64,000 nucleotides of DNA from Candidatus Aenigmatarchaeota archaeon (GCA_023137195.1 JAGLPV010000015.1:27075-91074); one strand, 5' to 3'; positions 5,185-52,390 are shown, numbered from the stretch's first letter. The notes: generated by a model from the sequence alone, not told the origin. Numbers and translations: made by a program.

Positions 5185-5191
5185 ATTGTTT

Positions 5192-30660: not shown

Positions 30661-31827
30661 TTAGCTATATGAGCAATTCGCCATGAGATAAATCAGGCTG
30701 CTGTATCCTCCTTTTGCAATCCCATAAGGGATGTTTAGCCACCAGAAAAGTGTTTTGTTCTCTCCTGTTGAAAGAGGAATATTATCGTAGTTGAGTTTTT
30801 GCCAGGATTCAGACATATTTCTTGCCGTGGCAACTGTGTTGTAAATGTTCCATTTTAGTTCATAGACAGGGATGTAATATACTACGCCATCATCGTTTAG
30901 AATCCCGTCGTCATTTGTCAGGTTTTCTCCTTTTATCCACAGATATTCTGCTTCCCCGGAATTTGAGTCAACACTAATGTTGTAGTAGTAATTATTGTTT
31001 TGAGGTGCCGCGATGCCGGAATCTCCCGGGTCATTAAGACCAAAGTCTACCTCATCAAAATGAGTTGTTATTGTGATGATGATTGCTGACTCAACTGTTG
31101 AGTCTGCTGTGTTGTTGTCTGGTATGCTGGCATTAGTTGATTCAAATATAACATCTATTTCATAAGTCTTATGCAAATCTGCTGTTGTATTGACAGTCCA
31201 GTTAATATAGCAGATTTCGTCTTTTTCAAGAGGGTTATTTGAACAGTTTTGGGCGTTTGTTCCGGAGGGCAGGTAGAATGGTTTGGCTCCTGTTGTGGTG
31301 TTGATGTCTTCATCGGGAAGAGATGTTGTTTTGTTGTATCTTACTCTTGCAGAAACATTTGAGCAGTTGGCATACATGCATACAACACTTGCATTTACAA
31401 CAAAAGTCCTGTTCTGGGGAACGCTGGTGGTGTCCTCAGGGATAATAATGGTTGGAAAAATACGAGGGTATTTTGTTGTATTTATTGTAATGAATTGCCT
31501 CTGGCTCTGGTTGGAGTTTCCTGTCGTGTTTTGAGCCCAAACAGTATAATTATAGGTGTGATCAGATAAACCAGTCATGTTTATATACCAGTTCGTTGTT
31601 GAAGAATTATCCATTGTGATATTTGTAAATCCGGATGCGTTGCCCCATTCGATTAATGCCTGATTTAACGGTTCGTCAGATGTTATATTAATGTAGGTAT
31701 ACTTATCGTTTGTTGTCGTTCCATTATTTTCTGTAGGTAGGACAAAAGTGACCGTCGGGATGGCGTAAGAAAAAGGAATAATAACAGCAATCAAGAGTCC
31801 CAAGTACAATAAAATACCTTTTATCAT
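30661..31827 (-). CDS. Secreted sequon-rich hypothetical surface protein
   Basis: N-terminal signal/anchor MIKGILLYLGLLIAVIIPFSYA and many N-x-S/T sites. No catalytic motif recognised. Confidence 0.5.
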   Translation of the reverse strand: MIKGILLYLGLLIAVIIPFSYAIPTVTFVLPTENNGTTTNDKYTYINITSDEPLNQALIEWGNASGFTNITMDNSSTTNWYINMTGLSDHTYNYTVWAQNTTGNSNQSQRQFITINTTKYPRIFPTIIIPEDTTSVPQNRTFVVNASVVCMYANCSNVSARVRYNKTTSLPDEDINTTTGAKPFYLPSGTNAQNCSNNPLEKDEICYINWTVNTTADLHKTYEIDVIFESTNASIPDNNTADSTVESAIIITITTHFDEVDFGLNDPGDSGIAAPQNNNYYYNISVDSNSGEAEYLWIKGENLTNDDGILNDDGVVYYIPVYELKWNIYNTVATARNMSESWQKLNYDNIPLSTGENKTLFWWLNIPYGIAKGGYSSLIYLMANCSYS

Positions 31828-33453: not shown

Positions 33454-36400
33454 ATGAGAAAAGCTCAAGTTTTACCCCTTAGTCTAATCGTGATAACGTT
33501 AATTCTTACTATTTATTATGTCGGCGGGACATTTTTCAAGGATGTCTCTCTCACAAAACAAGAAACAATGAATTATTATGTGGAAAATGCAAATGAAAAC
33601 GTGCAATTGATTAAACAGGCATTTGAAAAAACGGCATTATTCTGGGGGGTTATGAAAACTGCGGATGAGTTGGCTGAGAGCGGGGGAATTAGCAGTGCTG
33701 ACCTTGCCCTCGGTGCTGCAGACTCTGATAATTTCTGCCCACGGATGAACACTTCTTTAATAGGAGGAGAGAATATACTATACTGGGCATTGGCAGGAAA
33801 CAAGAGGATTGTAAAAAGAGTGCCTTTTATATATTATCTTGACAAAGAAACAACCGCCTATGATGTTACATTTCCTCTCCTTAATAAAGCCCAGCACGAG
33901 CAATATCTGAAAGATGTATCTAATAAGGTTTACAATTTGTCTATGACTATCCAGGTGTTATTCCTGAAACATGGAACAGTCAACATCACTTTTAACCAGG
34001 ATACGAGATATGCCACGTATATTATTGATGATACAGAAAAAGACGGGATTTATGAAATAAATTTCTTAAATGATAGTTTTATTCGCTCAACAAATGATGT
34101 TGATATAAGCATTAGAGGGGAAGATACAGCAGGAAACGTTGAAAAAATCGCAAAAATAAAGCAGATTGTCGTCTCAATATATAATGGGACTGTTGTTTTT
34201 GGACCTAATTCAATATTAAACAGTCACCTTACTGCCCCTGTAGCAAACCTTAATACAGAACTTGGCATAAATGCAGACGAAGAGATAAAAATATCTGTAG
34301 GCACTTTTGATGGTTCTTTTTCAAGAAAAACAACAAGTCCTAACAGTCCGGTATCTTCGCTTATGTGGGCAAGTGATGTGGGAATTGTCGCTACAATGAA
34401 AGATCCTTTTGATGATTCTGTTGATGCAGTCAAGATCAGGAGTAGGGGTCTTGTTGATGAAGATGTGTATATTCGGTACTGGTACCTGTACGATGCAGGG
34501 ATTTATTTTATAAACAATCTCGATGGATTGGTCAAGGCAAGGATTTGGGATAGGTTAAATACACTTGAGGATTATTATACAGACGTAGGTGATCAAGTTT
34601 GTGGGAAACCCGGGTGTCAAGTCAATGATAGTAGCACACGATCTTATTCAGAAGAGGATATTTATGATGAAATAGATGCCGGTCTTTCAGCATTAACTAC
34701 TCGTCTAAATAATGCGTATAGTTCTGCGGGCATAGAGTGGAGTGTATCTGCACCAAGAGCAATGCTTGATGATACGTCATTAGATACCAATTATAAGCAT
34801 ATGTGCAGTTCTTCTGTTGAAACAAATAGAACTGGCAATATAGTATATAAAGACAGTTACTTGAGCAAATGCACTCAAGACGGGACGTTATGTGGTGGGA
34901 AAACATGCATTAGAAGGAAGTCCTGTCCTACTTGTTATTACACTGTTGGGTGGCAGAATAAAAAATATAATACATGCACTTATTATTATGGTCATATATA
35001 TATTGTAAAAAATATCCCTGTCCTTGTAGAAATAACAGACACAAAATATCAAATTACTGACTCAAACGGGAATCAAAAAAATCCTACGATTAAATTCTTT
35101 GCAGAGATAGATAAAGTACAAGACAATTGCTGCAATAGCGGCAATACAGTATGCAGTTCATTAAGAAACAGCCATTGTTCAAATCCGTATGGGAAAATAA
35201 CTCCTGTTGCGCCTCCAGAGGTAAATCTTCCTCTTAATATTACCGATGTATTTGTATCTGATATAAATGAAAACAATGTGACAATAAACTGGCAATCAAC
35301 AAAGGATGCCACTTCTGTGCTCGTGGTTAAAAATTCATTGGGTGCTACTGTCTATTCCCATGCATATTCTTTAGATACTTTATTTGACCAAATAGTGACT
35401 GGTCTTGCAGAGGATCAGGTGTATACTTACGATATCACTGTAACTTCCGGGGCAGTAACAGATTCCTATTCTGATACGTTCACAACACATAAGACAGATA
35501 CTCCTCCTTCACCCGATCCTTTTTGCACCATAACAATAAATCCTCCTGTTGGTGGAGCTATCCTTTCGGGAACTGTAACTATAACTGCAACAGTAACCTG
35601 TCCTCCGGCCATAGGCAATATAGTTGCGGCAGATAATGTTTCATTTATGCTGGAGCAAGATTACGCACCAACCAGTTCTGCCTTGGCAGGACTAACAGCG
35701 ACATATAATCTAAATTGGGACTCTGAAGTAATATTAGAGGATGGATGGAAAAATATAAGCGCAAAATTCACAAAAACTGGGAAAAGTGTAAATGATAGAA
35801 TTCTTGTGATATTGAACAACGGTCAGGTTACATTGAATGTCAATGATATTGAAATAATACAGATGTCACTCACAACAGTAGATGTTATCGTTGACTTAAA
35901 CAAAGGCAGTCCGATGGTGACAACTCCTAAGCTTCTGAACCCAGATGATACAGACACGGGCATAATCCCTACTGAATCGCCTGCCAATACATATACATTT
36001 AGTCTTGCTGGTCTTAGTCCAGACACACACTATCCTACCACCGGAGCTAATGATAATTATACTTTTTATGCAACTGATGGAGCAGATATAGTGGAGAGGA
36101 ATATTTCATTTACAACAAACCCAAAAATTACCATTTCTACACTGGATACAACAGCAGAGGTTGTTGTTGAGACTACCCGGTCTGCATTAACCATGAAATT
36201 AGAAGATCATAATGGTGTTGGTGCAGGACCGCCGAACCAGATAGGAAACATATATACTTTCAATCTTAATGGGCTCAGCGCAGACACTCGCTATCCTCAC
36301 CCAACAGATATGACAAAATTTTATACTCTTAAAATAAATGATGCCGGAACAATAGAGGAATGTGATAGTCTTTGGTTCCAGACAAAGACATCATGCAAAA

Positions 36401-36690
36401 TAGAGATAATAACGCCTTCTTCCGGGATTGTTAAAGGAATAAAGACAATACAAGTAGATGTAACGGAATGTCCTAATGATATTACGGAAAATGTTAATGT
36501 TATTGTTAATGGTGGGGTTTTTTCAACAGTGATTAGTCCATCTTTTACTGGTCCAGACCACACGAAATCAGAATACATAACTTCATGGAATACCGCTATG
36601 GATGTAAATGGAACTTATGATCTTGATGCTTCTTTTACAAAGTTAGGCAAAACAATAACCGATAGTATAATTGTAACAATAGACAATTGA
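33454..36690 (+). CDS. Giant extracellular protein with FN3/Ig-like repeats
   Basis: N-terminal hydrophobic anchor. An FN3-like segment (NITDVFVSDINENNVTINWQSTKDATSVLVV). Two related Cys-bracketed Ig-like modules (CTITINPPVGGAILSGTVTITATVTC and CKIEIITPSSGIVKGIKTIQVDVTEC). Confidence 0.55.
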   Translation: MRKAQVLPLSLIVITLILTIYYVGGTFFKDVSLTKQETMNYYVENANENVQLIKQAFEKTALFWGVMKTADELAESGGISSADLALGAADSDNFCPRMNTSLIGGENILYWALAGNKRIVKRVPFIYYLDKETTAYDVTFPLLNKAQHEQYLKDVSNKVYNLSMTIQVLFLKHGTVNITFNQDTRYATYIIDDTEKDGIYEINFLNDSFIRSTNDVDISIRGEDTAGNVEKIAKIKQIVVSIYNGTVVFGPNSILNSHLTAPVANLNTELGINADEEIKISVGTFDGSFSRKTTSPNSPVSSLMWASDVGIVATMKDPFDDSVDAVKIRSRGLVDEDVYIRYWYLYDAGIYFINNLDGLVKARIWDRLNTLEDYYTDVGDQVCGKPGCQVNDSSTRSYSEEDIYDEIDAGLSALTTRLNNAYSSAGIEWSVSAPRAMLDDTSLDTNYKHMCSSSVETNRTGNIVYKDSYLSKCTQDGTLCGGKTCIRRKSCPTCYYTVGWQNKKYNTCTYYYGHIYIVKNIPVLVEITDTKYQITDSNGNQKNPTIKFFAEIDKVQDNCCNSGNTVCSSLRNSHCSNPYGKITPVAPPEVNLPLNITDVFVSDINENNVTINWQSTKDATSVLVVKNSLGATVYSHAYSLDTLFDQIVTGLAEDQVYTYDITVTSGAVTDSYSDTFTTHKTDTPPSPDPFCTITINPPVGGAILSGTVTITATVTCPPAIGNIVAADNVSFMLEQDYAPTSSALAGLTATYNLNWDSEVILEDGWKNISAKFTKTGKSVNDRILVILNNGQVTLNVNDIEIIQMSLTTVDVIVDLNKGSPMVTTPKLLNPDDTDTGIIPTESPANTYTFSLAGLSPDTHYPTTGANDNYTFYATDGADIVERNISFTTNPKITISTLDTTAEVVVETTRSALTMKLEDHNGVGAGPPNQIGNIYTFNLNGLSADTRYPHPTDMTKFYTLKINDAGTIEECDSLWFQTKTSCKIEIITPSSGIVKGIKTIQVDVTECPNDITENVNVIVNGGVFSTVISPSFTGPDHTKSEYITSWNTAMDVNGTYDLDASFTKLGKTITDSIIVTIDN

Positions 36691-36691
36691 A

Positions 36692-37567
36692 TCAGACAAA
36701 ACAAGATAGGATGAGTCCCAGAACCACGAAAACAGACAGATTAATTGTTTTTTGTATCTTTAATGTATCAATACCACCTGCTTTTAATTTTTCAATATCC
36801 TGGTGTGTTATTGGTCGAAAAGGAGAGATGACCTCTTTTTTATTCATGTAATTGTTCATCATCTTCTGACGGAAAATTGAATTTATGAACATTGGAATAT
36901 TCTGCCTCGTGAATTTTTCTTTTGTTCGGATTACAAACTCCGCGGGAATCATGCCGGCTCGCAACTGGTTTGTCGGGCACCATATTGAAAAAGAATCTGT
37001 GATTACATTAAATGCGAAAACAGCAAATAGCAAGACCAGGGAATTTTCCAGTGAAGCAATTGAATTCAATGCAATGAAAAAATACATATCTGCAAGGAAA
37101 TAAAGCAGCATTTTGTTTTTATTCAACAATTTCATTGTTTTGTTTTTGCCCATCCTGTTCAAAAAAACCTCTATGCAGAAGAATAAAAGGGCAGATAAAA
37201 TAAAGGAGATTCTTTGGTTTTTCAATACGACCATGAAAAGGGAATTGTAAAAGAACATTGCAAGAAAAAAAGAATAATAATATTCTATCTGCTTTCTTGT
37301 TTTGCTGGGGTATTTTACCTGCTCCTCTTCTTTGTAGAATATTGTTTTTTTGGAAAGAGAGTATAGAAATACATAAGCAAAATACAAAATTACTGTGTTT
37401 TTAAGTACGCTTTCTGCGATGTATGGGTTTGGGTTAAAGAAGAACAAAACCAAGACTCCGGTAAAATAAAGGGTTGCTGTCTTTCTGCCCATTACTTTTA
37501 GAAAAACCAAAATCAGGCAAATCAATATTAATTTTGCCATGACAATAAATAATGGTGGTATAATCAT
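36692..37567 (-). CDS. Polytopic membrane protein, last gene of the radical-SAM peptide operon
   Basis: 291 aa with about 7 hydrophobic helices and a soluble basic insert before the last helix. Its ATG lies 3 nt after the stop of the upstream rSAM gene. No family motif recognised. Confidence 0.5.
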   Translation of the reverse strand: MIIPPLFIVMAKLILICLILVFLKVMGRKTATLYFTGVLVLFFFNPNPYIAESVLKNTVILYFAYVFLYSLSKKTIFYKEEEQVKYPSKTRKQIEYYYSFFLAMFFYNSLFMVVLKNQRISFILSALLFFCIEVFLNRMGKNKTMKLLNKNKMLLYFLADMYFFIALNSIASLENSLVLLFAVFAFNVITDSFSIWCPTNQLRAGMIPAEFVIRTKEKFTRQNIPMFINSIFRQKMMNNYMNKKEVISPFRPITHQDIEKLKAGGIDTLKIQKTINLSVFVVLGLILSCFV

Positions 37568-37570
37568 AAT

Positions 37571-38956
37571 CTATTCTTCTGTCTTCAATATTGCCTTAAA
37601 ATAGTCAATATATTTTTTATCATTTAGTCTTTTGAACAGGTAATCCAGTATGACTTTATTTACATAACAGTCGAAATCGCCCGGTGTTTTTGCGACAAAA
37701 CTCCCGTAAGTGGCATAAGTCATGACAGCACAGTTTCCGCAGAAATTATTGTATGCGCATGTGTCGCACAATGGCTGGAATTCCTGTGTGCGTGTTCTCA
37801 AATCCAGAGTATCCATTACAATCTGGCTGAAGGTTGTTGTCTTTATATTCCCTACTTTCAATTCAGGTATGCTTCTTGCAATGTCGCAGGGATAAATATC
37901 TCCGTTTGGCGTAATGGAAACCTGGGTCATTGCCGCTCCGCAGGGCATTCTCATACACATATATCTTTTTACAGGAAAGATTATGTTTTTTATAAATGTA
38001 GTTATGTTTCGGTCTGCCATCAGGTATTTTTTTTCGTTGAATAAAAAGACGCAATACTCAAATGAGTCTTTCAAAAAGTCTGCAAATTCTTTTTTGCCCG
38101 GGGTCAAATAAGTGTTTTTTTTGCCCCTGCCCAGCTCATTTACGGCGCGCAGATAAATGCCGTTTCTTCCCAGTTTTATGTACTCGTCAATTATTGCCCT
38201 TGCGCCAACATCAATTGATTTTTTTGTGATTGTGGGCATTGTGCCCACTGTTCTTTTTCTTTTTTCAAAATAATCGCACCACTTCACTACTGCATCATAA
38301 CTGCCTCTTCCGTCAATAAAACTTCTTTGGGCATCATGAAGTTCTCTTGGACCGTCAAGGGATGAAGAAAGACCTATGTTGTTTTCCAGGATGTAATCTG
38401 CTATTTCTAGGTTCATCAGGGTGAGATTGGATACGATTGTTGCGCTTGCAAGGGTCTTGTTGTATTTTTTTTTCCTTTTGTTGAATTCTTCCAGGATATA
38501 TTTTATTTTGTCAAACCTCAGCAATGGCTCTCCGCCCTGGAATTCAATTGTTATGTTCTTGTGGGGGAGATTTAGGATAAAATCAAGATATGCCTCAATT
38601 GTCCTGTCGTCCATGTCCAGATTCTCTTCTTCCCTGGTTCCGGCATTTGCATGGCAATAAAGGCAACCCAAATTGCACCTGTGTGTGAGATTGACAATGC
38701 AATTCATAAATATGGATTTGTTCTGCATGTATTGCATACCAGTAAGAGCAATAACATCTTTTGTGTTTTGTGTGTCAAGTAAAATCTTGTTTTCGACTAG
38801 CTTTTTTGTCCAGTTCTTATTTTGCCTGTATTGACCATTATTTAATGCCCTATACTCTTTTTCAGACAGCAATGCATAAGTTCCGCATCTGGTTGTTACC
38901 AAAAACAGGTCTTTGTCTATTTTCCTTGAAAAATACTCGTTTAGTACTGGTTCCAT
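37571..38956 (-). CDS. Radical SAM / SPASM-domain peptide-maturase-like protein
   Basis: CNLGCLYC (Cx3Cx2C) and EFQGGEPLL. C-terminal PCGAA...NGDIYPCD and CDTCAYNNFCGNC (SPASM CxxCx5Cx3C). About 85 aa precede the cluster motif and could be a peptide-binding domain. Confidence 0.8.
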   Translation of the reverse strand: MEPVLNEYFSRKIDKDLFLVTTRCGTYALLSEKEYRALNNGQYRQNKNWTKKLVENKILLDTQNTKDVIALTGMQYMQNKSIFMNCIVNLTHRCNLGCLYCHANAGTREEENLDMDDRTIEAYLDFILNLPHKNITIEFQGGEPLLRFDKIKYILEEFNKRKKKYNKTLASATIVSNLTLMNLEIADYILENNIGLSSSLDGPRELHDAQRSFIDGRGSYDAVVKWCDYFEKRKRTVGTMPTITKKSIDVGARAIIDEYIKLGRNGIYLRAVNELGRGKKNTYLTPGKKEFADFLKDSFEYCVFLFNEKKYLMADRNITTFIKNIIFPVKRYMCMRMPCGAAMTQVSITPNGDIYPCDIARSIPELKVGNIKTTTFSQIVMDTLDLRTRTQEFQPLCDTCAYNNFCGNCAVMTYATYGSFVAKTPGDFDCYVNKVILDYLFKRLNDKKYIDYFKAILKTEE

Positions 38957-38969
38957 ATTGCATCATTTG

Positions 38970-40736
38970 TCATTGTCTGGGGTTAAACTCACCTATCCCA
39001 TATTCTTTTATGTAGTTTGACCAGACGCCGTCGCATTTAGTCCTGTAAAATGAACAGGTTTTGCATATGTTGTTGTTTGCAGCTTCCTGGCTTTCTCTAT
39101 CATACAAAGGCATTCTTTTTTGCCTCAATGAATTTATGTTTTTGTAATTTTTTAAAACACAGATAGGGAACATGTCTACCTGACAATTTATTTTTTTTGA
39201 TTTTGCAAAGTTTATTGCAGAATCCATGTAAGGGGCTACTTTGCCTGCTTTTATAGAAAGTATTTTCTTGTTTCTTATTGCAGAGCCGTTTATACTTAGG
39301 AAACTAAAAATAATGCTTGTTTTGCCGGGGAATCTCGTGTGTAGAAAATCCACTATGTCTTTTAGATATATGTAATTCATCTTATGCATGACTATCTTTA
39401 TTATTATGGCGCAATTGTTGTTTACTAAGTTCTCAATGCCATTTAGTGTTTCGTTGAAACTTCCCTTTCTTTGTGTGATTTTGTCATGCAGTTCTGCATT
39501 GTGCCCGTGAATATCAATGCAAAAACGAGTTATTCCTGCTTGAATTATATTTTTCGCAAAAATATCATCCTTTAATTTTCTGCCATTTGTAGTTATGGAG
39601 ACATTGTCTGTGTATTTTTTTATGTGTTTTATCAAAGGAATTATGTCCTTAAATATTGTCGGCTCTCCGCCCATCAATACAATAGAATCCTGTTTTCTTA
39701 ATTTAAGCAAATCAATCTTTTCCTTTATTTTTTCCGGGGTCTTGTCGTTGGATGGGTTGTTTCCGTTTTCAGAGCAAAAAAGACAGTCATTATTGCATGC
39801 GCCGCATACATCAAAAACGATTGTTTTCTTATTTTCTTTTTTTTCCTGCTTTAATTCGCCTGTTCCAAACGCATCATAATAGCTGGACCATGTGCCATAG
39901 CATTTTTTGTTCAAATCGCATGAATAACATTCCGGGGCAGCTCCATGTTCATCTGTTTTATTCTGCACTTCCTTTGAAGGTGACCTATATAGGGAAACTG
40001 TGTCTGGCTGCTGCCCGGCATAATTCCGATATTCCTTACTAAGAACGCACAAAGGAATAGAATACAAAACCATGTTGATATTATATTTATTTGCGATATC
40101 TATTGCCTTATAGACATAAGGAATATAATCTGTAAAGGAAACTGCAACTTTGTCTTTAGATGCCAGTGCCATCCCCCTGATATCCAGCCCGTTTATTGAC
40201 ATATTCTTTACTGAAGGGAAATTCTTTGCGACAAACTCGACAATCTGCGGCATGTCTTTATAATTTAGCTTTGTGACTATTATTTTTACAGTTACAGGAA
40301 CATTTAGTTGGGATAAATTTTTTATTCCCTGGTGGGTCTCTCTAAAACTCCCTTTTACCTGTGTGAGTTCATCGTGTTTTTCCTCTTTCCAGTGATGCAA
40401 TGCAGTAATGACGCTTCTTATATTGTATCCTGAAAATTCTCCGGCAAATGCAAAATTGCAAAATCTCCTGCCGTTTGTAAGCAGAGAGTAATGCAAATAA
40501 GGATATTTTTGACCCAGGTATGATAAAATATACAAAAAATCTTCTCTTACTGTCGGCTCACCACCAGAAAGTTCAATAAGCCCAATGTCCTTGTTTTTTT
40601 CCAGGCGATTATTAAAGAAATCCAAAACTTCTTTTTTTGTCATATTCTTATTCCTGTTGGAATGCGCATCCACAACACAAATAAGACAATTATTATTGCA
40701 CCTGTATCCGAGCGCGCAATAGCATTTTGTAAACAT
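38970..40736 (-). CDS. Fused tandem double radical SAM protein
   Basis: There are two homologous halves. Half 1 has YRCNNNCLIC, LSGGEPTV, LTNGRRF, HDELTQVKGSFRETHQGIKNL and CYSCDLNKKCYGTWSSYY. Half 2 has CGACNNDCLFC, LMGGEPTI, TTNGRKL, HDKITQRKGSFNETLNGIENL and CKTCSFYRTKCDGVWSNY. Confidence 0.8.
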   Translation of the reverse strand: MFTKCYCALGYRCNNNCLICVVDAHSNRNKNMTKKEVLDFFNNRLEKNKDIGLIELSGGEPTVREDFLYILSYLGQKYPYLHYSLLTNGRRFCNFAFAGEFSGYNIRSVITALHHWKEEKHDELTQVKGSFRETHQGIKNLSQLNVPVTVKIIVTKLNYKDMPQIVEFVAKNFPSVKNMSINGLDIRGMALASKDKVAVSFTDYIPYVYKAIDIANKYNINMVLYSIPLCVLSKEYRNYAGQQPDTVSLYRSPSKEVQNKTDEHGAAPECYSCDLNKKCYGTWSSYYDAFGTGELKQEKKENKKTIVFDVCGACNNDCLFCSENGNNPSNDKTPEKIKEKIDLLKLRKQDSIVLMGGEPTIFKDIIPLIKHIKKYTDNVSITTNGRKLKDDIFAKNIIQAGITRFCIDIHGHNAELHDKITQRKGSFNETLNGIENLVNNNCAIIIKIVMHKMNYIYLKDIVDFLHTRFPGKTSIIFSFLSINGSAIRNKKILSIKAGKVAPYMDSAINFAKSKKINCQVDMFPICVLKNYKNINSLRQKRMPLYDRESQEAANNNICKTCSFYRTKCDGVWSNYIKEYGIGEFNPRQ

Positions 40737-40739
40737 AGC

Positions 40740-41072
40740 CTATAACCACCTAAGAGACCATGTATTGGAATGCCTGGTCCAGTTGCACCAGTCGCTCCAG
40801 TCGCACCAGTCACACCACTGCGCCCAGTTACTCCATCCAGCATGATGCGTGTTTTTTACAGAAGGGTTTGTGCTATTATTCCACCCGGAAACGCAGGTTG
40901 ATGCCTCTGCCTCCGGTGAGCTGGAAAGCAGATATCCTGCTGCTGCACCTAAAAGGACAAGCCCTGTAATAACTCCTGTTTTTTCATCATTACTCAGGTA
41001 ATTCAGAGAAAACATAGCTTTCTTGTTTTCAAGCTTGTTTTTTATCTTTTTTATTTTATCTGCAAAAGCCAT
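40740..41072 (-). CDS. Candidate precursor peptide with a C-terminal (W-x-x)7 Trp/Cys ladder
   Basis: 110 aa with an ATG start, and its stop lies 3 nt before the rSAM gene ATG. It has a Lys-rich N-terminus, a hydrophobic segment GVITGLVLLGAAAGYLL, the AEAS motif, then ...HHAGWSNWAQWCDWCDWSDWCNWTRHSNTWSLRWL. Confidence 0.6.
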   Translation of the reverse strand: MAFADKIKKIKNKLENKKAMFSLNYLSNDEKTGVITGLVLLGAAAGYLLSSSPEAEASTCVSGWNNSTNPSVKNTHHAGWSNWAQWCDWCDWSDWCNWTRHSNTWSLRWL

Positions 41073-41121
41073 ATAAAAGCATAATATTTAATTATTTAAA
41101 TTTAATTCATTCAATATACTT

Positions 41122-42530: not shown

Positions 42531-43625
42531 CTAAATTAGCAAACAATATAAATAATTCAAAAGCAGGATTATTATAAAACTGGCAACAAATGCCTTGAGC
42601 AAATCCTCTTTTTGGGCATATTCCTGCTTGTTGTAATAAATTAGTGCAATTAGAGCCGAAGCGAAAATTATCCAAAACCAGTATGTACTGCATGTTTTAG
42701 CAGAAACATCTTTTGATATTATGTTGTCTCCATCCTCTGTTGCTATTCCTGCCGGTGAAATATCAGAAGTCACAATAATAAATCCGGTTTTGTATATTTT
42801 TTTTCCCCTTACATCAAGTGCTATTTTTACCTTGTATTTCCCGTCCTTTATTTCCTCTCTGTCCCTCCACAATACTGTGCTTTTTCTTAGGTCACTATCT
42901 CCCAATAACATTGTTCCTAAATTTTCCTTTTCAAAAATAATATCATCATACTCATCATATATTTTTATTGCTTTTGCTTCAAAAGGCACTGTGATTGTTC
43001 CTGTGTTTTTAACATGATAATCCACATATACGGAATTCTTGTTTGTTCTTCGCCCTTCTATCTGGGAAATTTCTCCATCTATTGAAACTTTTCCCGGGAC
43101 CCTGAATATTATCGATGGTCTTGTAAGGGCAACCAAATTAACGGTTGGTCTTCCTATCTTTTTGGGTAAATTTGAACTCATAGAAATGGATAACACATGA
43201 ATTCCCGGCTCTGCATCCAATGGAACAGATATTTTTACAGGGATGACTGCATTTGGGTCGAGGTTATATTCTTTAGGAACAGGAATACTAACTGATGAGG
43301 AAGAACTAAATTTTATATTGTCTTTTATTTCCACCCACGAAGATACATCTTCAAATGAAAGTTCCATAGGATCGTATTTGAATTTTTCCCCTGTTCCGGA
43401 CTCCATAAATATATTATGGTGGGGTTGAATATAACTGGTGCTTAAAACTATCTTTTCCTCAGAATCTGTAGCTACAAATATATAATTCGTTATAATTTCT
43501 CCTTTTGAGATTGTCCCGAAATTTGAAATGAGAGGCGTTGCACCCACAGAATAGCCGGATGCATCAAAAGAAAATAAATACATTGCTGTAATGGCAAAAT
43601 AAATAAAAAACTTTGATTTAAACAT
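42531..43625 (-). CDS. Secreted hypothetical protein with C-terminal TM anchor
   Basis: MFKSKFFIYFAITAMYLFSFDASG signal and C-terminal YWFWIIFASALIALIYY anchor. The track start 43643 is TTG; the first ATG is at 43625. Confidence 0.5.
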   Translation of the reverse strand: MFKSKFFIYFAITAMYLFSFDASGYSVGATPLISNFGTISKGEIITNYIFVATDSEEKIVLSTSYIQPHHNIFMESGTGEKFKYDPMELSFEDVSSWVEIKDNIKFSSSSSVSIPVPKEYNLDPNAVIPVKISVPLDAEPGIHVLSISMSSNLPKKIGRPTVNLVALTRPSIIFRVPGKVSIDGEISQIEGRRTNKNSVYVDYHVKNTGTITVPFEAKAIKIYDEYDDIIFEKENLGTMLLGDSDLRKSTVLWRDREEIKDGKYKVKIALDVRGKKIYKTGFIIVTSDISPAGIATEDGDNIISKDVSAKTCSTYWFWIIFASALIALIYYNKQEYAQKEDLLKAFVASFIIILLLNYLYCLLI

Positions 43626-43654
43626 AGATACTAAAAGAACCAATGTTTTTATAA

Positions 43655-48396: not shown

Positions 48397-50895
48397 TTAA
48401 TAACTATAAAGTGACGTTTCTTCTGACTCATCCAAAATACTTGTTTTTTCTGATTCAGTATTGTTGTCGATATTATTTTCTTTTATTAACTTAAATATCT
48501 TTATTTCTTCATTGTCAAAGACTTTTTCCAAAAAAGGAATATTGTGACCATCAAAAATATACAACCTTGCAAAATTTGAAATCCCGGGAGTTTTTGTCGG
48601 ATATGGAATGTATGTGCCGTATTTTGAAAACAGCATGCAGAAATCAGCTACATTGCTTGTTTCGTTCGGAGCTAAATCAACAAGACCATCTTGAGTGCAT
48701 AAGTATTTTATTTTCATATTTTGCATTCCCTGCGTCAGCATTATATTTCCCATCAAACCGCCGTTTTCATTCAAAGGAACCGAAATGATGCCTCCTCCGA
48801 AATTAAATATTGCAACAGTTATGTTGTTTTTCTTTTCCAGTTGTGGTTGAGGTAATGGCGAAAAATAATTCTCTGGCTTCTTGAATAAGTTGTCCTCTTC
48901 ATAATAGTCGTTCTGTCCGGCATAATGACCTATCCTGCTCATCATAGGGTACTTTCCAATTAATGTCCTGTCTACTACCATATAGTCTGCCTGGTACTCT
49001 ATCATCAAATCTTTTATGTGAGTTATGTTTGTATCTGTAAACATTTGTGCAAGATGCTCATTTACTGTATTATTAGCATTCATTCCATCTGCTGTACTTC
49101 TTCTGTTACCTGCCGTCTGGAACCAATATCCATAATCCCACCAACTCATGATTGCCGCATCTTCGGGCGTATTGTGTTTCATCCACTTCATTGATTCCTG
49201 CCATTTTGAATCAAATGTAAGCCCTGTGTATTTGTTTACAACATAAGCAGAAGAAATATTTACAGAGATAAAACACACGGCGATAAAAATAACAGCAATT
49301 GCTTTTGCAAAGGGAATTATATTAATTGTCTCATCCTCTTCATTTTGAACATCTTCTTTTTTTGAAGAAGAACGTTCTTTTATTTTTTCAAAAAAATCAA
49401 TTGTTTTTTGGTTTTTAATTAAACTCCGGCTTCCCTCATATAAATATGAAGCACCCATCCCTGCCATTATACAAAAAGGAGCTCCCAGAATAAACATGAC
49501 TCTTATGTACTTTAATGATCCGTGGATGGATGAAGCCATCCATAAAACAATTAAAATGATGCCAATATTTGTACTGTAAAATGAGATAAAAAACACAAAA
49601 GCAATCAGACCGTAATAAAAATTAAAGTAACCTAAAAGAGGAACAGCAATCAATGCAAGATAAAAGATATCTTTATTTTTATATTCTCCTCTCTTTTTAT
49701 ACAACTCATAAAATATAAATATCAAAAATATCCATAATAGAGAAGTTACGCTAAAATAAGACAGGATTGTTCCTGGTATGTTGTAGGACTTGTCCTGATT
49801 GAACAAAGGAGTATTCAAAACCTGTTGCATATAGCTTATTCCTGAAGCAACACTAAATTGATTTTCTATTTGCGCAAGAGATCCAGGGGCATTTTCTGCA
49901 ACAGTCGTGGTAGACACACCCTTTTCTAAAGCCACAAGCCCTGTTACTGACTTAATTAAACCAGCACATGAAGGAATAAAAAAAGAGCCGATAAATACCA
50001 TAAAAATAACGCCCGTTATTGACACAGGAATAATGTATTTGTGCATGGATTTGTCTTTTACTTTCTTCTGGGCAAAATAAACAAAACAAATCAACGCGGA
50101 TAATCCTAAAAGCAATTGTCCATTTGCATATAATGGAGAAACTGAAATTCTTTTAAATCCCAGCAAAAAAGGAAGAATAACTCCCATAACGGCAATTGGA
50201 ATCTGTGATTTTAAAAGTAAAGAAATATTCTTTTTTTTAAACAGGAGAAGAATAAAATAAAATCCAATAATCAAAAGCATAATTGGATTTGCAAGACCGC
50301 TTATTACATTTAAAAAACAAAAACACATTCCTCCAAGCATTGAATTGAAAATGGTGTCCTTCTTAAATGATTTTACAATATAATACATTGTCATTATTAT
50401 AAAAATACCTGCCAGAGGCTCTTTTTCGATAAACCCCGCAGATGTTCTGTATAATATGGCTGGAGTTGTCGCATAAAGAAATGCGGCGAAAAGCCCTGTT
50501 TTTTTATTCCTCAGTTGGGATGCCAGCAAATAAATCGCCAGAACCTGCAATGTTCCCATAAGCGCCGGGTAAATCCATGCAAATTTATAATATGTAAAAA
50601 AGAATTTGAAAAAAACAGAATACAAAATTGCAGGAATATAATATGTCAATGCCAGGTTTTCATGAGGATCTCTTCCATTAGGATAATACTGCATCAAATC
50701 ATTATCCGGTAGATGAAATTCATTTTCAATTAAATGCAAACTTATCCTGTACATATAAAATGGATCTAATGCACGAAAGCAATCTACTCCTTCAACACAC
50801 GTATCCATTAAATCCATCGGTATGAGTCTAATCCATAAAGAAACAAGCAAAACAAAAACAAGAAGCCCGACATAGAGATATTTGTTTTTATTCAT
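48397..50895 (-). CDS. aglB: Archaeal oligosaccharyltransferase AglB (STT3 family)
   Basis: A multi-TM N-terminal half and the WWDYGYW motif (MSWWDYGYWF) at the start of the soluble C-terminal domain. 832 aa. Confidence 0.9.
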   Translation of the reverse strand: MNKNKYLYVGLLVFVLLVSLWIRLIPMDLMDTCVEGVDCFRALDPFYMYRISLHLIENEFHLPDNDLMQYYPNGRDPHENLALTYYIPAILYSVFFKFFFTYYKFAWIYPALMGTLQVLAIYLLASQLRNKKTGLFAAFLYATTPAILYRTSAGFIEKEPLAGIFIIMTMYYIVKSFKKDTIFNSMLGGMCFCFLNVISGLANPIMLLIIGFYFILLLFKKKNISLLLKSQIPIAVMGVILPFLLGFKRISVSPLYANGQLLLGLSALICFVYFAQKKVKDKSMHKYIIPVSITGVIFMVFIGSFFIPSCAGLIKSVTGLVALEKGVSTTTVAENAPGSLAQIENQFSVASGISYMQQVLNTPLFNQDKSYNIPGTILSYFSVTSLLWIFLIFIFYELYKKRGEYKNKDIFYLALIAVPLLGYFNFYYGLIAFVFFISFYSTNIGIILIVLWMASSIHGSLKYIRVMFILGAPFCIMAGMGASYLYEGSRSLIKNQKTIDFFEKIKERSSSKKEDVQNEEDETINIIPFAKAIAVIFIAVCFISVNISSAYVVNKYTGLTFDSKWQESMKWMKHNTPEDAAIMSWWDYGYWFQTAGNRRSTADGMNANNTVNEHLAQMFTDTNITHIKDLMIEYQADYMVVDRTLIGKYPMMSRIGHYAGQNDYYEEDNLFKKPENYFSPLPQPQLEKKNNITVAIFNFGGGIISVPLNENGGLMGNIMLTQGMQNMKIKYLCTQDGLVDLAPNETSNVADFCMLFSKYGTYIPYPTKTPGISNFARLYIFDGHNIPFLEKVFDNEEIKIFKLIKENNIDNNTESEKTSILDESEETSLYSY

Positions 50896-50929: not shown

Positions 50930-52390
50930 TTATTCGTCTTTTAATTTATACCTGTGCACCCAATCGTAATGGATGCCCCCGTCCCTTGAAAAAATGCGAC
51001 CTTCTTCGCTTAATTTTGTGAAATATTGTTCTGACCTTTTTTCTGTCCAGTTCATGAGCTCCACTATGTTTGCAATGATATCCTCTTTTGTTTTATCTGA
51101 GATTAAAATCGCTCTTCTGATATCCAATGGGATTTCGACCTTCCATTCCCTTTCTTTTAGATTGTATTTTTTTTCTTCATCAATCTTTTCTATGACCTGG
51201 GTTATATTTTTCTCAAAAGTATTGATTACATTTTTTTGTATTTTTTGATTATTCTTTTCAAAGGCAGTATAATAAGAAGTTATTCTTGCGCATTGTATTT
51301 CAATCAAATCCATGTCGTAAATGTTATTAAATATTATTTCTTCTGTTTTGTTCATCCATGAGCTGATTTTTAATATTGAAGAATCAAGAACCTGATTGAA
51401 TGATTTTGAAGTTAGTTGCTTATCTCCCAAACAGCCGTAATATATCAAAGAATTTTGCAGGGCGGTATTGTTCGCGATGTCCTTTTCTCCATAAACATTA
51501 ATCCCGTCTATTGCATATTTGTATTCAGATTCCCGGATATTGTTGTCTTTTATTTTTGAAGCAACATTCCATGATAAGACATTGTAGTTCTTTAAGATTT
51601 CCCTGTTTTTTCGCATGGATTCAAATTCCTTTATTGTCCCGTTTAATTCATTTAAAATGCCTACATGCTCAAGAGTAATTCCATAATCTGAATTATTCAA
51701 ATACTTGTCAAAAACATCCACATCTTTTTTTGTCCGGGAATCGTATATATAAGAAGCTCCTAATCCATCTACATACGTCTTTCTATCCAAAATATCCGAG
51801 CCAATGTAAGGAGATAAAAGGGAATCTGAGACATGGTTGTCTCTCATGCTTAATGAAGATATTTCTGTAATGCTTTTTTGCATCTCTTTTAGCGTCAGGA
51901 CAGGATACTTTGGGTTGTTGTCTTTTGAAATTTTTAATGTGGTCGCCTCCGGCTTACTCATAAGGGAAAATAATTCATAATAGTTTTTATTGTGTTCTAG
52001 TTTACTGCCTGTTATTTTTTTTATTTTAATAGAATAAGGTATGTCTGAATCCAATTTTGTTTCATACGGGGCGATTATTATTGTCATTAAATCATTCCTA
52101 GATAATTCTGCATAAAAATTATATAACTTAAAACCACTATCTGATTCCATGCATTTGTTTCTTTTAAATATAAACTGTATTTTTTTAATTAGTAGTTTTG
52201 AAGGTTTTTTTATCAATTCCAGATATCCTTCTATTGCCTTGATTTTTTTTCCGGATCTTAATTTTGCATTTGCCTGCGAATAGAGCTTTTGATTTAGAGG
52301 TAGTTTTTTGATTGCTGTGGAATCATAATTTTCATAAAAATTCTTTTTTCCTGAATATCCTATTTCTTCAATTAATTCTTCAAATGACAT
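50930..52390 (-). CDS. Hypothetical protein translationally coupled to mcm
   Basis: 486 aa with no recognisable motif. Its ATG (52388-52390) sits 1 nt after the mcm stop codon (52392-52394). Confidence 0.5.
   Translation of the reverse strand: MSFEELIEEIGYSGKKNFYENYDSTAIKKLPLNQKLYSQANAKLRSGKKIKAIEGYLELIKKPSKLLIKKIQFIFKRNKCMESDSGFKLYNFYAELSRNDLMTIIIAPYETKLDSDIPYSIKIKKITGSKLEHNKNYYELFSLMSKPEATTLKISKDNNPKYPVLTLKEMQKSITEISSLSMRDNHVSDSLLSPYIGSDILDRKTYVDGLGASYIYDSRTKKDVDVFDKYLNNSDYGITLEHVGILNELNGTIKEFESMRKNREILKNYNVLSWNVASKIKDNNIRESEYKYAIDGINVYGEKDIANNTALQNSLIYYGCLGDKQLTSKSFNQVLDSSILKISSWMNKTEEIIFNNIYDMDLIEIQCARITSYYTAFEKNNQKIQKNVINTFEKNITQVIEKIDEEKKYNLKEREWKVEIPLDIRRAILISDKTKEDIIANIVELMNWTEKRSEQYFTKLSEEGRIFSRDGGIHYDWVHRYKLKDE

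What the first reader, a model, noticed from the sequence alone, without database searches (positions are those of the whole stretch)
36692..41072. Compact archaeal radical-SAM peptide-maturation operon: Trp-ladder precursor, three rSAM domains, membrane protein
Four minus-strand genes are packed with only 3-13 nt between them. The first is a 110-aa ORF with an extraordinary Trp/Cys-rich C-terminus. The second is a 588-aa fusion of two radical-SAM halves, each with Cx3Cx2C, GGEPT and a terminal CxxCx5-6C..G.WS.Y motif. The third is a 461-aa rSAM with CNLGCLYC and a SPASM-type CDTCAYNNFCGNC. The fourth is a 291-aa polytopic membrane protein. A small aromatic/Cys-rich ORF directly upstream of rSAM/SPASM enzymes is the classical signature of rSAM-dependent RiPP clusters (sactipeptides, ranthipeptides, streptide, darobactin, triceptides). 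These are described almost entirely from bacteria. I do not recognise this precursor, nor the combination of three rSAM domains, as a described family. I infer a new archaeal RiPP or crosslinked-peptide pathway. This is my best candidate for the undescribed system in the window.
Basis: partly seen in the sequence, partly recalled or inferred. Interest (0 to 1): 0.92.

Follow-up and report, generated by a model that had tools for sequence, protein, structure and literature searches.

The report
Trp-repeat variant of Hxs peptide-maturation system
A DPANN (Aenigmarchaeota) archaeon carries a rare relative of the bacterial His-Xaa-Ser (Hxs) radical-SAM peptide-maturation system, in which the substrate is a peptide with a Trp-x-Asn/Asp ladder and the last gene is a catalytically dead prepilin-peptidase homologue.

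Summary
Four tightly packed minus-strand genes (gaps 3, 13 and 3 nt) encode a 110-aa peptide with seven Trp at exact period 3, a 588-aa double radical-SAM protein, a 461-aa rSAM/SPASM protein and a 291-aa membrane protein.

The small ORF is conserved next to the enzymes in every related locus and is very probably their substrate. The enzymes, however, are not an unknown combination. The 461-aa protein is HxsB-like. The 588-aa protein is a tandem duplication of HxsC. All three domains score below NCBIfam's curated cut-offs.

More distant DPANN and Myxococcales relatives of the same enzymes sit next to canonical His-x-Ser repeat peptides (HxsA3/A4-like). This clade has therefore swapped H-x-S repeats for W-[S/G/C]-[N/D] repeats, a motif that triceptide cyclophane synthases are known to crosslink.

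The peptide family has about 25 clusters among 5.8 billion proteins and matches no Pfam or NCBIfam model. The membrane protein is an N-terminally truncated homologue of archaeal A24 prepilin peptidase without either catalytic Asp. A large surface protein gene is always convergent to the operon. HxsD is absent from the window.

Verdict: a new variant of a known kind. Chemistry and biological role are untested.

The parts
40740..41072 (-). Precursor peptide (110 aa). It has a Lys-rich N-terminal helix, an invariant EKTGV motif (40971-40985), a Gly-zipper hydrophobic helix (residues about 32-52), an AEA-S-x-C linker, and a Trp ladder WSNWAQWCDWCDWSDWCNW (40779-40835).
   Evidence: Searches give the sequence and motifs. 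One search shows a third-codon-position substitution bias. Searches show a family of about 25 clusters with E30, K31, G33, V34, L38, C60, W80 and W89 invariant. AF2 predicts helices 3-17 and 28-50 and a disordered core. Searches find no Pfam or NCBIfam hit.
38970..40736 (-). Tandem HxsC-like radical-SAM protein (588 aa). It has two CxxxCxxC/GGEPT cores. Each is followed by four conserved Cys (C230/C270/C273/C279 and C526/C558/C561/C568), which probably bind one auxiliary cluster per half.
   Evidence: the halves are 32% identical, E 3e-42; each half has TIGR03977 HxsC as best hit (171.2 and 141.2 bits; cut-off 267.9). The whole protein scores 300.6 bits only because the two domains add up. One search lists the invariant Cys. 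GenBank calls it 'radical SAM protein' MCK5039947.1.
37571..38956 (-). HxsB-like radical-SAM/SPASM peptide maturase (461 aa). About 85 aa precede the CNLGCLYC cluster motif, and the protein ends in a SPASM domain.
   Evidence: TIGR03978 HxsB at 299.7 bits, residues 11-454 on model positions 7-463 of 466, cut-off 370. The next family is PapB at 153 bits. Pfam Radical_SAM and SPASM; the closest solved structure is 5wgg, E 7e-30 (CteB, the SCIFF thioether maturase, by my own knowledge).
36692..37567 (-). Membrane protein (291 aa). It is an N-terminally truncated homologue of archaeal A24 (FlaK-type) prepilin peptidase with its Arc_PepC domain. It lacks both catalytic Asp, so it is a likely pseudo-peptidase.
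   Evidence: Arc_PepC at E 0.0094; among remote relatives, 15 of 24 hit Arc_PepC (best 5e-11) and 5 of 24 hit Peptidase_A24; hhalign probability 99.6%, E 1e-23, 270 columns; clade positions 12-297 match template positions 64-347, so TM1 with Asp1 is missing; the GxGD Asp aligns with T/N/S/A/H; an HMM built from catalytic A24-like proteins hits only this ORF in the window (E 5.7e-13).
33454..36690 (+). Convergent 1078-aa gene whose stop codon lies 1 nt from the stop of the membrane gene. It has an N-terminal anchor (MRKAQVLPLSLIVITL...) and no known domains. It is a conserved neighbour and a possible functional partner of the operon.
   Evidence: its N-terminal ~570 aa is found convergent to the operon in every W-type locus with enough flank (L004, L005, L006, L007/L009, L011, L091, L092, L093) at 22-53% identity, while other flanking genes differ; no Pfam family.
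41073..41121 (-). A 49-nt intergenic region shared with the divergent thiolase gene. It contains TTTAAATA about 21-28 nt upstream of the precursor ATG, a candidate archaeal TATA box (inference only).
   Evidence: Searches give the sequence; the bacterial-type promoter and terminator scan gave no more matches than shuffled sequence.

Best explanation
This is an Hxs-type radical-SAM peptide-maturation operon of an Aenigmarchaeota (DPANN) archaeon. The usual His-Xaa-Ser repeat substrate has been replaced by a Trp-[Ser/Gly/Cys]-[Asn/Asp] repeat peptide.

Proposed course of events:
1. The 110-aa precursor is made in the cytoplasm.
2. Its conserved Lys-rich leader and EKTGV-plus-Gly-zipper helix are recognised by the maturases. 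This step is inferred.
3. The HxsB-like SPASM enzyme and the duplicated HxsC-like enzyme modify the disordered Trp-ladder core. The most likely chemistry is intramolecular crosslinks within each W-x-N/D triplet, that is triceptide-like Trp-to-C-beta cyclophanes at -2 Da each. This is inferred, and I give about 0.35 to this specific chemistry.
4. The hydrophobic helix then takes the product into or across the membrane. Its highly conserved N-terminal segment docks on the Asp-less A24 prepilin-peptidase homologue. Removal of the leader is left to a housekeeping peptidase, either at EKTG|V or at the AEA|S site. This step is inferred.
5. The product ends up on the cell surface, next to the conserved large surface protein encoded convergently. 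This step is also inferred.

Shown here: the gene content, the homologies, the co-occurrence, the motif, and the loss of the catalytic residues. Not shown: any chemistry, the processing, the localisation, or the biological role.
For: Enzyme identity:
- HxsB and HxsC are the best and near full-length matches.
- HxsD (PF27806/TIGR03976) lies next to the precursor in sister loci L007, L010, L011, L091, L092 and L093.

Substrate link:
- The order precursor, HxsC, HxsB is kept in 9 independent W-type loci at 41-70% enzyme identity.
- More distant homologues of the same enzymes in Iainarchaeum, Woesearchaeota, Nanoarchaeota and Myxococcales sit beside H-x-S repeat peptides. These peptides hit NCBIfam HxsA3/A4. 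They share the design of a basic N-terminus, an EEK/G motif, a hydrophobic helix, and then repeats. The hhalign alignment is in register but weak, P 0.0023.

Motif, over 26 precursors:
- The spacing between consecutive Trp is 3 residues in 81 of 153 cases.
- X2 (the residue after Trp) is Ser, Gly or Cys in 58 of 81 triplets.
- X3 (the third residue) is Asn or Asp in 60 of 81 triplets.
- Trp-C7 to Asn/Asp C-beta (OscB) and Trp-C6 to Asn/Arg C-beta (XncB) crosslinks on exactly such triplets are established chemistry (review PMC11002830; PMC11499958).

Core and membrane protein:
- AF2 predicts the core as disordered, as expected for a peptide substrate.
- The membrane protein is an A24 homologue without catalytic Asp.
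- A catalytically intact relative (YQD plus WTAGDGKLF) lies inside an HxS-type operon in Nanoarchaeota locus L023.
- By analogy, bacterial HxsA is modified in the cytoplasm, N-terminally processed and exported (PMC13128918).
Against: - All three rSAM domains score below NCBIfam's curated Hxs cut-offs. GenBank's own annotation of the record does not call them Hxs.
- HxsD, which is required in E. coli, is absent from the 64-kb window and from the closest relatives.
- The only experimental Hxs chemistry reported is a +8 Da change on SHRSS, not a -2 Da crosslink (PMC13128918).
- After HxsB, the 461-aa enzyme scores higher against thioether-forming maturases (PapB 153 bits, SCIFF 120 bits) than against cyclophane synthases (YhhB 65 bits, GrrM/OscB 64 bits).
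- If the hydrophobic helix drives co-translational insertion, the core would be out of reach of cytoplasmic rSAM enzymes.
- One related locus (L005) lacks the membrane gene, and one copy in L006 is fragmentary.
- No Pfam pilin or class-III-signal model matches the peptide or its neighbours.
Confidence: 0.7

Rival explanations
1. Antiviral barrier, as in bacterial HXS. The matured peptide sits at the cell envelope and blocks entry of viral DNA. The operon would then be a DPANN defence system. This is a rival about the role of the system and is compatible with the maturation mechanism above.
For: The only characterised relatives (E. coli HxsABCD) form an anti-phage system whose rSAM-matured, exported effector blocks DNA entry (PMC13128918). 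The precursor here also combines an N-terminal export or anchor segment with C-terminal repeats.
Against: - The E. coli model relies on basic HxS repeats binding DNA electrostatically. The cores here are neutral to strongly acidic: net charge 0 in the window, and up to 8-9 Asp with no Lys or Arg in relatives.
- There is no peptidoglycan-binding domain.
- The operon lies among housekeeping genes (thiolase, RNase P subunits, AglB/STT3), not in a defence island.
- PADLOC gives only generic viperin-level rSAM similarity.
Confidence: 0.2
2. Structural surface peptide or mini-pilin. After cleavage at EKTG|V, the hydrophobic helix anchors a crosslinked Trp-rich head on the membrane or in a filament. 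There it works with the adjacent large surface protein, for example in attachment of the episymbiont to its host.
For: - The EKTGV motif immediately precedes a nearly invariant GxxxxGxxxG helix. This is far more conserved than ordinary signal peptides.
- The operon carries a homologue of prepilin peptidase.
- The convergent large protein is conserved in all W-type loci.
- In L011, L092, L093 and L007 that gene is followed by small proteins with a short basic leader plus a hydrophobic N-terminus.
Against: - The A24 homologue has lost both catalytic Asp.
- The leader is about 30 aa, which is long for a class III signal, and position -2 is Thr rather than Lys or Arg.
- No Pfam pilin or class-III-signal model hits any of these proteins, so the 'pilin-like' label rests on inspection only.
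Confidence: 0.25
3. Secreted antimicrobial or signalling RiPP. Signal peptidase cuts after AEA and releases a crosslinked peptide of about 50 aa. The membrane protein would act as immunity or export factor.
For: An AxA-type site follows the hydrophobic segment in most family members: AEA|S, ADA|P, AHA|Q. The arrangement of small precursor, rSAM/SPASM enzyme and membrane protein is the classical RiPP layout. Trp-rich peptides are often membrane-active (general knowledge).
Against: - There is no transporter or peptidase-containing ABC exporter in the operon.
- The membrane protein is related to a peptidase, not to a transporter.
- The high conservation of the TM helix is atypical for a disposable signal peptide.
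- The cores are acidic or neutral rather than cationic.
Confidence: 0.2
4. Thioether (sactipeptide or ranthipeptide-like) chemistry. The enzymes link the Cys residues of the core to acceptor carbons, for example Cys to Asp as PapB does on CxxxD. The Trp residues would be structural only.
For: - Apart from HxsB, the best family matches of the 461-aa enzyme are PapB (153 bits), the SCIFF maturase (120 bits) and CefB.
- The closest solved structure is 5wgg, which I know as the SCIFF thioether maturase CteB.
- C60 is invariant in the family.
- The window core contains C87-x3-D91 and C90-x3-D94.
Against: - Within the ladder, Cys is only one option at X2 (13 of 81 triplets, against Ser 28 and Gly 17).
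- Several precursors have just two Cys, for example L007 and P0130.
- What is conserved across the family is the Trp spacing and Asn/Asp at X3.
Confidence: 0.15
5. Housekeeping maturases whose true substrate is encoded elsewhere, with the small ORF an unrelated bystander.
For: SPASM enzymes include anaerobic sulfatase maturases (110 bits). The operon lies among housekeeping genes.
Against: - The small ORF co-occurs with the enzymes in all W-type loci.
- Homologous enzymes elsewhere pair with repeat peptides of the same architecture.
- Scores against the sulfatase and cofactor maturase models are far below their cut-offs.
- The family is very rare: about 11 close clusters of the fused enzyme and 25 of the peptide among 5.8 billion proteins. 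That is incompatible with a housekeeping role.
Confidence: 0.03

Closest known systems
Bacterial His-Xaa-Ser (HXS) system HxsABCD (TIGR03976-03979; Haft and Basu 2011; anti-phage function in Li et al. 2026, PMC13128918)
   Same: - An adjacent pair of an HxsB-type rSAM/SPASM enzyme and an HxsC-type rSAM enzyme.
- A substrate with an N-terminal export or processing segment and a period-3 repeat region.
- HxsD is present in sister loci.
   Different: - The repeats are W-x-N/D, not H-x-S.
- The substrate is a 110-aa peptide with no peptidoglycan-binding domain.
- The core is neutral or acidic rather than basic.
- HxsC is duplicated and fused.
- HxsD is absent from the window.
- The gene order is A-C-B-membrane, not D-B-C-A.
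- There is an extra A24-like membrane protein.
- The host is a DPANN archaeon, whereas 99.7% of known HXS systems are in Pseudomonadota.
- All enzyme scores are below the curated cut-offs.
Short-peptide Hxs variants in NCBIfam (HxsA2 NF038296, HxsA3 NF038309, HxsA4 NF038313, HxsC4 NF038332)
   Same: - Small (80-140 aa) precursors with a basic N-terminus, an acidic/Gly motif, a hydrophobic helix and then repeats.
- They are found next to homologues of the same enzymes in DPANN and Myxococcales loci.
- An A24 peptidase gene lies inside one such operon, L023.
   Different: - The W-type peptides hit none of these models, even at E<=10.
- Leader similarity is only weakly detectable (hhalign P 0.0023, probability 12.6%).
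- The second rSAM domain matches HxsC better than HxsC4 (141 against 122 bits).
- The A24 homologue here is catalytically degenerate.
Triceptides / three-residue cyclophane-forming rSAM enzymes (XncB, OscB/GrrM, MscB, YhhB, HaaB, HtkB)
   Same: - The precursor carries repeated aromatic-X-X triplets, and W-x-N/D is exactly the triplet that OscB and XncB crosslink (PMC11002830).
- The maturase is an rSAM/SPASM enzyme with an N-terminal extension.
- The repeats are many and contiguous.
   Different: - The SPASM enzyme is HxsB-like, not a member of any characterised cyclophane-synthase family (YhhB 65 bits against a cut-off of 445; GrrM/OscB 64 bits against 310).
- A second, non-SPASM rSAM enzyme type (HxsC, here in two copies) is present.
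- The precursor carries a transmembrane helix.
- The host is archaeal.
- The crosslink itself is untested.
Archaeal A24 prepilin/preflagellin peptidases (FlaK/PibD type, with Arc_PepC domain)
   Same: The 291-aa protein is homologous over about 270 columns, including the C-terminal Arc_PepC domain and the last TM helix.
   Different: - It lacks the first TM helix that carries Asp1.
- The Asp of the GxGD motif is replaced by Thr, Asn, Ser or Ala throughout the clade.
- It is encoded within an rSAM operon.

Membership tests
Hxs (His-Xaa-Ser) system | HxsB equivalog (TIGR03978) at or above the curated cut-off | tested here: not met
   299.7 bits against a cut-off of 370. It is the best hit, aligns end to end (model positions 7-463 of 466), and scores twice the next family. 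It is therefore homologous, but outside the curated equivalog.
Hxs (His-Xaa-Ser) system | HxsC equivalog (TIGR03977) at or above the curated cut-off | tested here: not met
   the N-half scores 171.2 bits and the C-half 141.2 bits, against a cut-off of 267.9. The whole-protein score of 300.6 bits passes only because the two domains add up.
Hxs (His-Xaa-Ser) system | Adjacent substrate with His-Xaa-Ser repeats (HxsA / A2 / A3 / A4 models) | tested here: not met
   no NCBIfam hit at E<=10. The sequence has W-x-x repeats and a single HSN.
Hxs (His-Xaa-Ser) system | HxsD (TIGR03976 / PF27806) present | tested here: not met
   an HMM built from 6 HxsD homologues finds nothing better than E 0.26 among all window ORFs. 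HxsD is present in sister loci L007, L010, L011, L091, L092 and L093.
Hxs (His-Xaa-Ser) system | HxsB and HxsC genes adjacent | tested here: met
   the two genes are 13 nt apart on the same strand.
Triceptides (3-residue cyclophane RiPPs) | Precursor with aromatic-X2-X3 motifs | tested here: met
   seven contiguous W-x-x triplets in the window. Across the family, X3 is Asn or Asp in 60 of 81 triplets.
Triceptides (3-residue cyclophane RiPPs) | Maturase belongs to a characterised cyclophane-synthase family | tested here: not met
   YhhB 65 bits (cut-off 445) and GrrM/OscB 64.3 bits (cut-off 310).
Triceptides (3-residue cyclophane RiPPs) | Aromatic carbon to C-beta crosslink between residues i and i+2 (-2 Da) | not testable with these tools
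   This needs co-expression followed by MS/MS and NMR.
A24 prepilin peptidase | Sequence homology to the A24 / Arc_PepC membrane fold | tested here: met
   hhalign probability 99.6%, E 1e-23. Arc_PepC in 15 of 24 relatives. E 5.7e-13.
A24 prepilin peptidase | Two catalytic Asp (TM1 Asp and the GxGD Asp) | tested here: not met
   the first ~63 template positions, which carry Asp1, have no counterpart. The GxGD Asp aligns with T/N/S/A/H in all 17 clade members.
Sactipeptide / ranthipeptide | Conserved Cys donors paired with acceptor residues in the core | tested here: inconclusive
   C60 is invariant. Cys within the ladder are variable (2-4 per core). The enzyme scores below the PapB and SCIFF cut-offs.
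Archaeal type IV pilin / class III signal peptide protein | Match to pilin N-terminal or class III signal models | tested here: not met
   no Pfam pilin or class-III-signal hit for the precursor, the 1078-aa protein or the small neighbours, even at E<=1. The resemblance (basic leader, Gly, hydrophobic helix) is by inspection only.

The most novel reading that the evidence does not exclude
DPANN archaea make a new class of surface molecule. It would be a pilin-like mini-protein whose N-terminal helix docks on a dedicated pseudo-prepilin peptidase. Its C-terminal head would be a rigid rod of consecutive radical-SAM-made Trp cyclophanes. It would act together with the conserved neighbouring giant surface protein, in attachment to the host cell or in exclusion of viruses. 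The Hxs enzyme pair would then be a general machine for period-3 aromatic repeats (His, Trp), and the W-type peptides would be the tractable substrate that reveals its still unknown chemistry.
Probability: 0.15. Interest if true: 0.85.

Novelty: new variant of a known kind. Interest (0 to 1): 0.6.

Why it matters
- The chemistry of the Hxs enzyme pair is still unresolved. The only experimental report is an odd +8 Da change on one SHRSS motif. A natural variant whose substrate is a short peptide with up to 13 contiguous W-x-N/D triplets gives a much cleaner substrate for MS and NMR. It also tests whether HxsB/HxsC are cyclophane synthases for period-3 aromatic repeats.
- It extends Hxs-type systems from Pseudomonadota to genome-reduced DPANN archaea. 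Few modified peptides are known from that group. Keeping three rSAM domains in a very small genome implies an important role, probably at the cell surface.
- A catalytically dead prepilin-peptidase homologue recruited into a peptide-maturation operon is an unusual example of an enzyme turned binding partner, if that reading is confirmed.

Tried and rejected
1. AF2 model of the membrane protein from a 4-sequence alignment. Mean pLDDT was 58.8, and Foldseek against the PDB gave no match with E<1. Uninformative.
2. Profile of the Asp-less clade against PDB sequences. No FlaK hit, only chance matches. Homology to A24 had to be shown through intermediate sequences instead.
3. The idea that the membrane protein is an active leader peptidase using Asp in LADMYF and ITDS. 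Rejected, because those Asp are not conserved and the canonical Asp positions are lost.
4. Pfam pilin and class-III-signal models on the precursor, the 1078-aa protein and the small neighbours. No hits.
5. PADLOC defence models. Only generic viperin-level rSAM similarity.
6. HxsD search in the window with a custom HMM. Nothing found.
7. Leader homology between W-type and HxS-type precursors by hhalign. The alignment is in register but weak (P 0.0023, probability 12.6%). I treat it as suggestive only.
8. JGI metagenome scan with the EKTGV pattern. Only 2 loci, one of them a duplicate of L004.
9. Bacterial-type promoter and terminator scan. At chance level, as expected for an archaeon.
10. The Haft and Basu 2011 paper could not be read. 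It is cited only through PMC9062424.
11. Search for a PMT_2 glycosyltransferase among ten large window ORFs. None found.
12. AF2 model of the precursor. Only the two N-terminal helices are predicted with moderate confidence, and the core is disordered.

Full report
**1. Observation**

The gaps between them are 3, 13 and 3 nt.

The 110-aa product ends in WSNWAQWCDWCDWSDWCNW. That is seven Trp at exact period 3, plus three more Trp and four Cys. Chance cannot give this (about 4e-14).

The 588-aa protein has two CxxxCxxC/GGEPT cores. Its halves are 32% identical (E 3e-42), and each ends in CxxCx5-6C.G.WS.Y. The 461-aa protein has CNLGCLYC and a SPASM domain.

The small ORF is a real gene. Orthologues differ mostly at third codon positions. 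A profile search finds 25 clusters of 72-121 aa with the same design.

The window is a metagenome scaffold (ERZ23498471, SAMN18200496). GenBank assigns the same proteins to a Candidatus Aenigmarchaeota MAG and names them 'hypothetical protein', 'radical SAM protein' and 'SPASM domain-containing protein'.

**2. What the enzymes are**

NCBIfam places the 461-aa protein closest to HxsB. It scores 299.7 bits against TIGR03978, aligned over model positions 7-463 of 466. The next family, PapB, scores 153 bits.

The 588-aa protein scores 300.6 bits on HxsC (TIGR03977). That score is the sum of two domains. Scanned separately, the halves give 171.2 and 141.2 bits, each over nearly the whole model, and HxsC is the best hit for both.

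All three domains are therefore HxsB- or HxsC-like, but all fall below the curated cut-offs of 370 and 267.9 bits. The 'three rSAM domains' are the known HxsB/HxsC pair with HxsC duplicated in tandem. Sister loci L010, L011, L091 and L092 carry a single HxsC of 296-323 aa.

The Hxs pair was predicted in 2011 to mature His-Xaa-Ser repeat proteins (cited in PMC9062424). In 2026 the E. coli HxsABCD system was shown to be an anti-phage system. Its rSAM-matured, N-terminally processed, periplasmic HxsA blocks phage DNA entry. The reported modification is +8 Da on SHRSS, and 99.7% of known systems are in Pseudomonadota (PMC13128918).

**3. Relatives and context**

Close relatives of the fused enzyme are few: about 11 clusters with at least 39% identity among 5.8 billion proteins. 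All come from DPANN MAGs labelled Nanohalarchaeota or Aenigmarchaeota.

In nine independent loci the order is precursor, HxsC (single or fused), HxsB. In eight of the nine loci where the region after HxsB is available, a homologue of the 291-aa membrane protein follows. HxsD precedes the precursor in L007, L010, L011, L091, L092 and L093. It is absent from the window and its three closest relatives.

More distant homologues of the same enzymes occur in Iainarchaeum, Woesearchaeota, Nanoarchaeota, Nanoanaerosalina and Myxococcales. These sit next to small peptides with canonical H-x-S repeats. Those peptides hit NCBIfam HxsA3/HxsA4; the Myxococcales example passes the cut-off at 128 bits. They share the architecture of a basic N-terminus, an acidic/Gly motif, a hydrophobic helix and then repeats.

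The W-type peptides hit no model. Their leaders align with the HxS-type leaders in register, but only weakly (hhalign P 0.0023).

I conclude that this DPANN clade is an Hxs-type system whose substrate repeat changed from His-x-Ser to Trp-x-Asn/Asp.

**4. The precursor**

Invariant or nearly invariant positions across 23 sequences are K9, I10, K11, E30, K31, T32, G33, V34, G37, L38, G42, C60, W80, W86 and W89. The parts are:
- a Lys-rich helix;
- an EKTGV motif;
- a Gly-zipper hydrophobic helix;
- an AxA-like site followed by S-x-C;
- a Trp-rich core.

AF2 predicts helices at 3-17 and 28-50 and a disordered core.

Over 26 cores, the spacing between consecutive Trp is 3 residues in 81 of 153 intervals. 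X2, the residue after Trp, is Ser, Gly or Cys in 58 of 81 triplets. X3, the third residue, is Asn or Asp in 60 of 81. A sub-family has W-x-D-H-C-W-W-D-H-C-W cores.

W-x-N/D is the triplet on which the triceptide synthases OscB (Trp-C7 to Asn/Asp C-beta) and XncB (Trp-C6 to Asn/Arg C-beta) form three-residue cyclophanes (PMC11002830; PMC11499958). That makes cyclophane formation the leading chemical hypothesis.

The hypothesis has clear limits. The enzyme is not a member of those families (64-65 bits). Apart from HxsB, it scores higher on thioether-forming maturases. The only experimental Hxs chemistry is not a simple -2 Da crosslink.

**5. The membrane protein**

It has only 4 close clusters. 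A profile search of 1.84 billion representatives gives 29 hits. The weaker hits (P0168-P0177) carry the A24 prepilin-peptidase motifs SYEDIKxGKIRN and WTAGDAKLF.

Pfam finds Arc_PepC in 15 of 24 aligned members and Peptidase_A24 in 5 of 24. A profile-profile comparison of the 17-member Asp-less clade with six catalytic members gives probability 99.6% and E 1e-23 over 270 columns. Clade positions 12-297 match template positions 64-347.

The first TM helix, which carries Asp1, is therefore missing. No upstream coding space exists to supply it, because the HxsB-like gene ends 3 nt before. The Asp of GxGD aligns with Thr, Asn, Ser, Ala or His. No alternative invariant acidic TM residue exists.

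A catalytically intact relative lies inside an HxS-type operon in Nanoarchaeota locus L023, in the order A24 peptidase, HxsD, HxsB, HxsA-like, HxsC.

I read the 291-aa protein as a pseudo-peptidase that kept the ability to bind the EKTGV-plus-helix segment. This is an inference. The unusually strong conservation of that segment supports it.

**6. The convergent neighbour**

The 1078-aa ORF at 33454-36690(+) ends 1 nt from the stop codon of the membrane gene. It has an N-terminal hydrophobic anchor and no Pfam domain.

Its N-terminal ~570 aa is found convergent to the operon in every W-type locus with enough flank, at 22-53% identity, while other flanking genes vary. In L011, L092, L093 and L007 it is followed by small proteins with short basic leaders and hydrophobic N-termini.

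They look pilin-like by eye, but no Pfam pilin model matches them. A functional link is plausible but unproven.

**7. Function**

- An HXS-like antiviral role is possible. It is weakened because the cores are neutral or acidic rather than basic, there is no defence-island context, and PADLOC gives nothing specific.
- A surface or attachment role fits three things: the conserved anchor helix, the A24 homologue, and the conserved surface-protein neighbour.
- A secreted peptide released at the AEA|S site is also possible.
- Housekeeping maturation of a distant substrate is essentially excluded by the co-occurrence data and by the rarity of the family.

**8. Verdict**

I classify it as a new variant of a known kind. 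The new features are the Trp-repeat substrate, the duplicated HxsC, the loss of HxsD, the pseudo-A24 partner and the DPANN host. Interest is moderate to high, about 0.6, mainly because it offers a clean handle on the unsolved Hxs chemistry and on DPANN surface biology.

Noticed in passing
L006 2562-4589; L007 1-1439 and 2696-4438: PMT_2 (GT-C, dolichyl-phosphate-mannose type) glycosyltransferase genes lie next to the W-type operon in two related loci. W-x-x-W is the consensus for Trp C-mannosylation in eukaryotes, which is done by GT-C enzymes. No such gene was found among ten large ORFs scanned in the window. The link is speculative.
   Followed up: partly
L006 1-8322: The operon appears twice on one contig. 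The order is: end of a fused HxsC, HxsB, a 146-aa fragment of the membrane gene, PMT_2, then precursor, fused HxsC and HxsB. A run of N lies in the second HxsB. This could be a true tandem duplication or a mis-join of two strains.
   Followed up: no
L093 4578-7296: A second HxsB-like gene (466 aa), a second HxsD (131 aa) and a DUF483-like protein lie directly upstream of the W-type operon. This locus may therefore encode two maturation sets.
   Followed up: no
L091 6875-7933; L093 2407-3405: A Peptidase_U32 gene lies within a few kb of the operon in two related loci. It is a candidate leader peptidase. I did not look for one in the window.
   Followed up: no
window 20922-22847 (-): A 641-aa protein combines a KAP-family P-loop NTPase domain (E 1.4e-48) with C-terminal pentapeptide repeats (E 5.5e-29). 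This is an unusual fusion, and KAP NTPases are often linked to conflict systems.
   Followed up: no
window 24031-27015 (+), 3115-5211 (-), 50930-52390 (-), 30661-31827 (-), 42531-43643 (-): Several large ORFs (370-994 aa) have no Pfam family at E<=0.001. The 388-aa ORF starts MIKGILLYLGLLIAVII, a short basic leader plus hydrophobic helix like that of the 1078-aa protein.
   Followed up: partly
window 36690-36692: The stop codons of the convergent 1078-aa gene and the membrane gene are separated by a single nucleotide. That leaves no room for terminators, so the transcripts must overlap or terminate inside the opposing gene.
   Followed up: no
window 1608-3134 (-); 52392-54443 (-); 48397-50895 (-): The context is housekeeping and archaeal. 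It includes a eukaryote-like Ser/Thr protein kinase domain protein, MCM helicase, STT3/AglB, RNase P subunits (Rpp14, p30, Rpr2) and a thiolase. This is consistent with a chromosomal DPANN locus rather than a mobile element.
   Followed up: partly
L010 (JAIWAJ010000174.1): This 3.4-kb contig carries a W-type operon and is binned as a Methanosarcinales MAG. All other family members are DPANN, so it is probably a binning error. It could also reflect a DPANN symbiont associated with that host.
   Followed up: no
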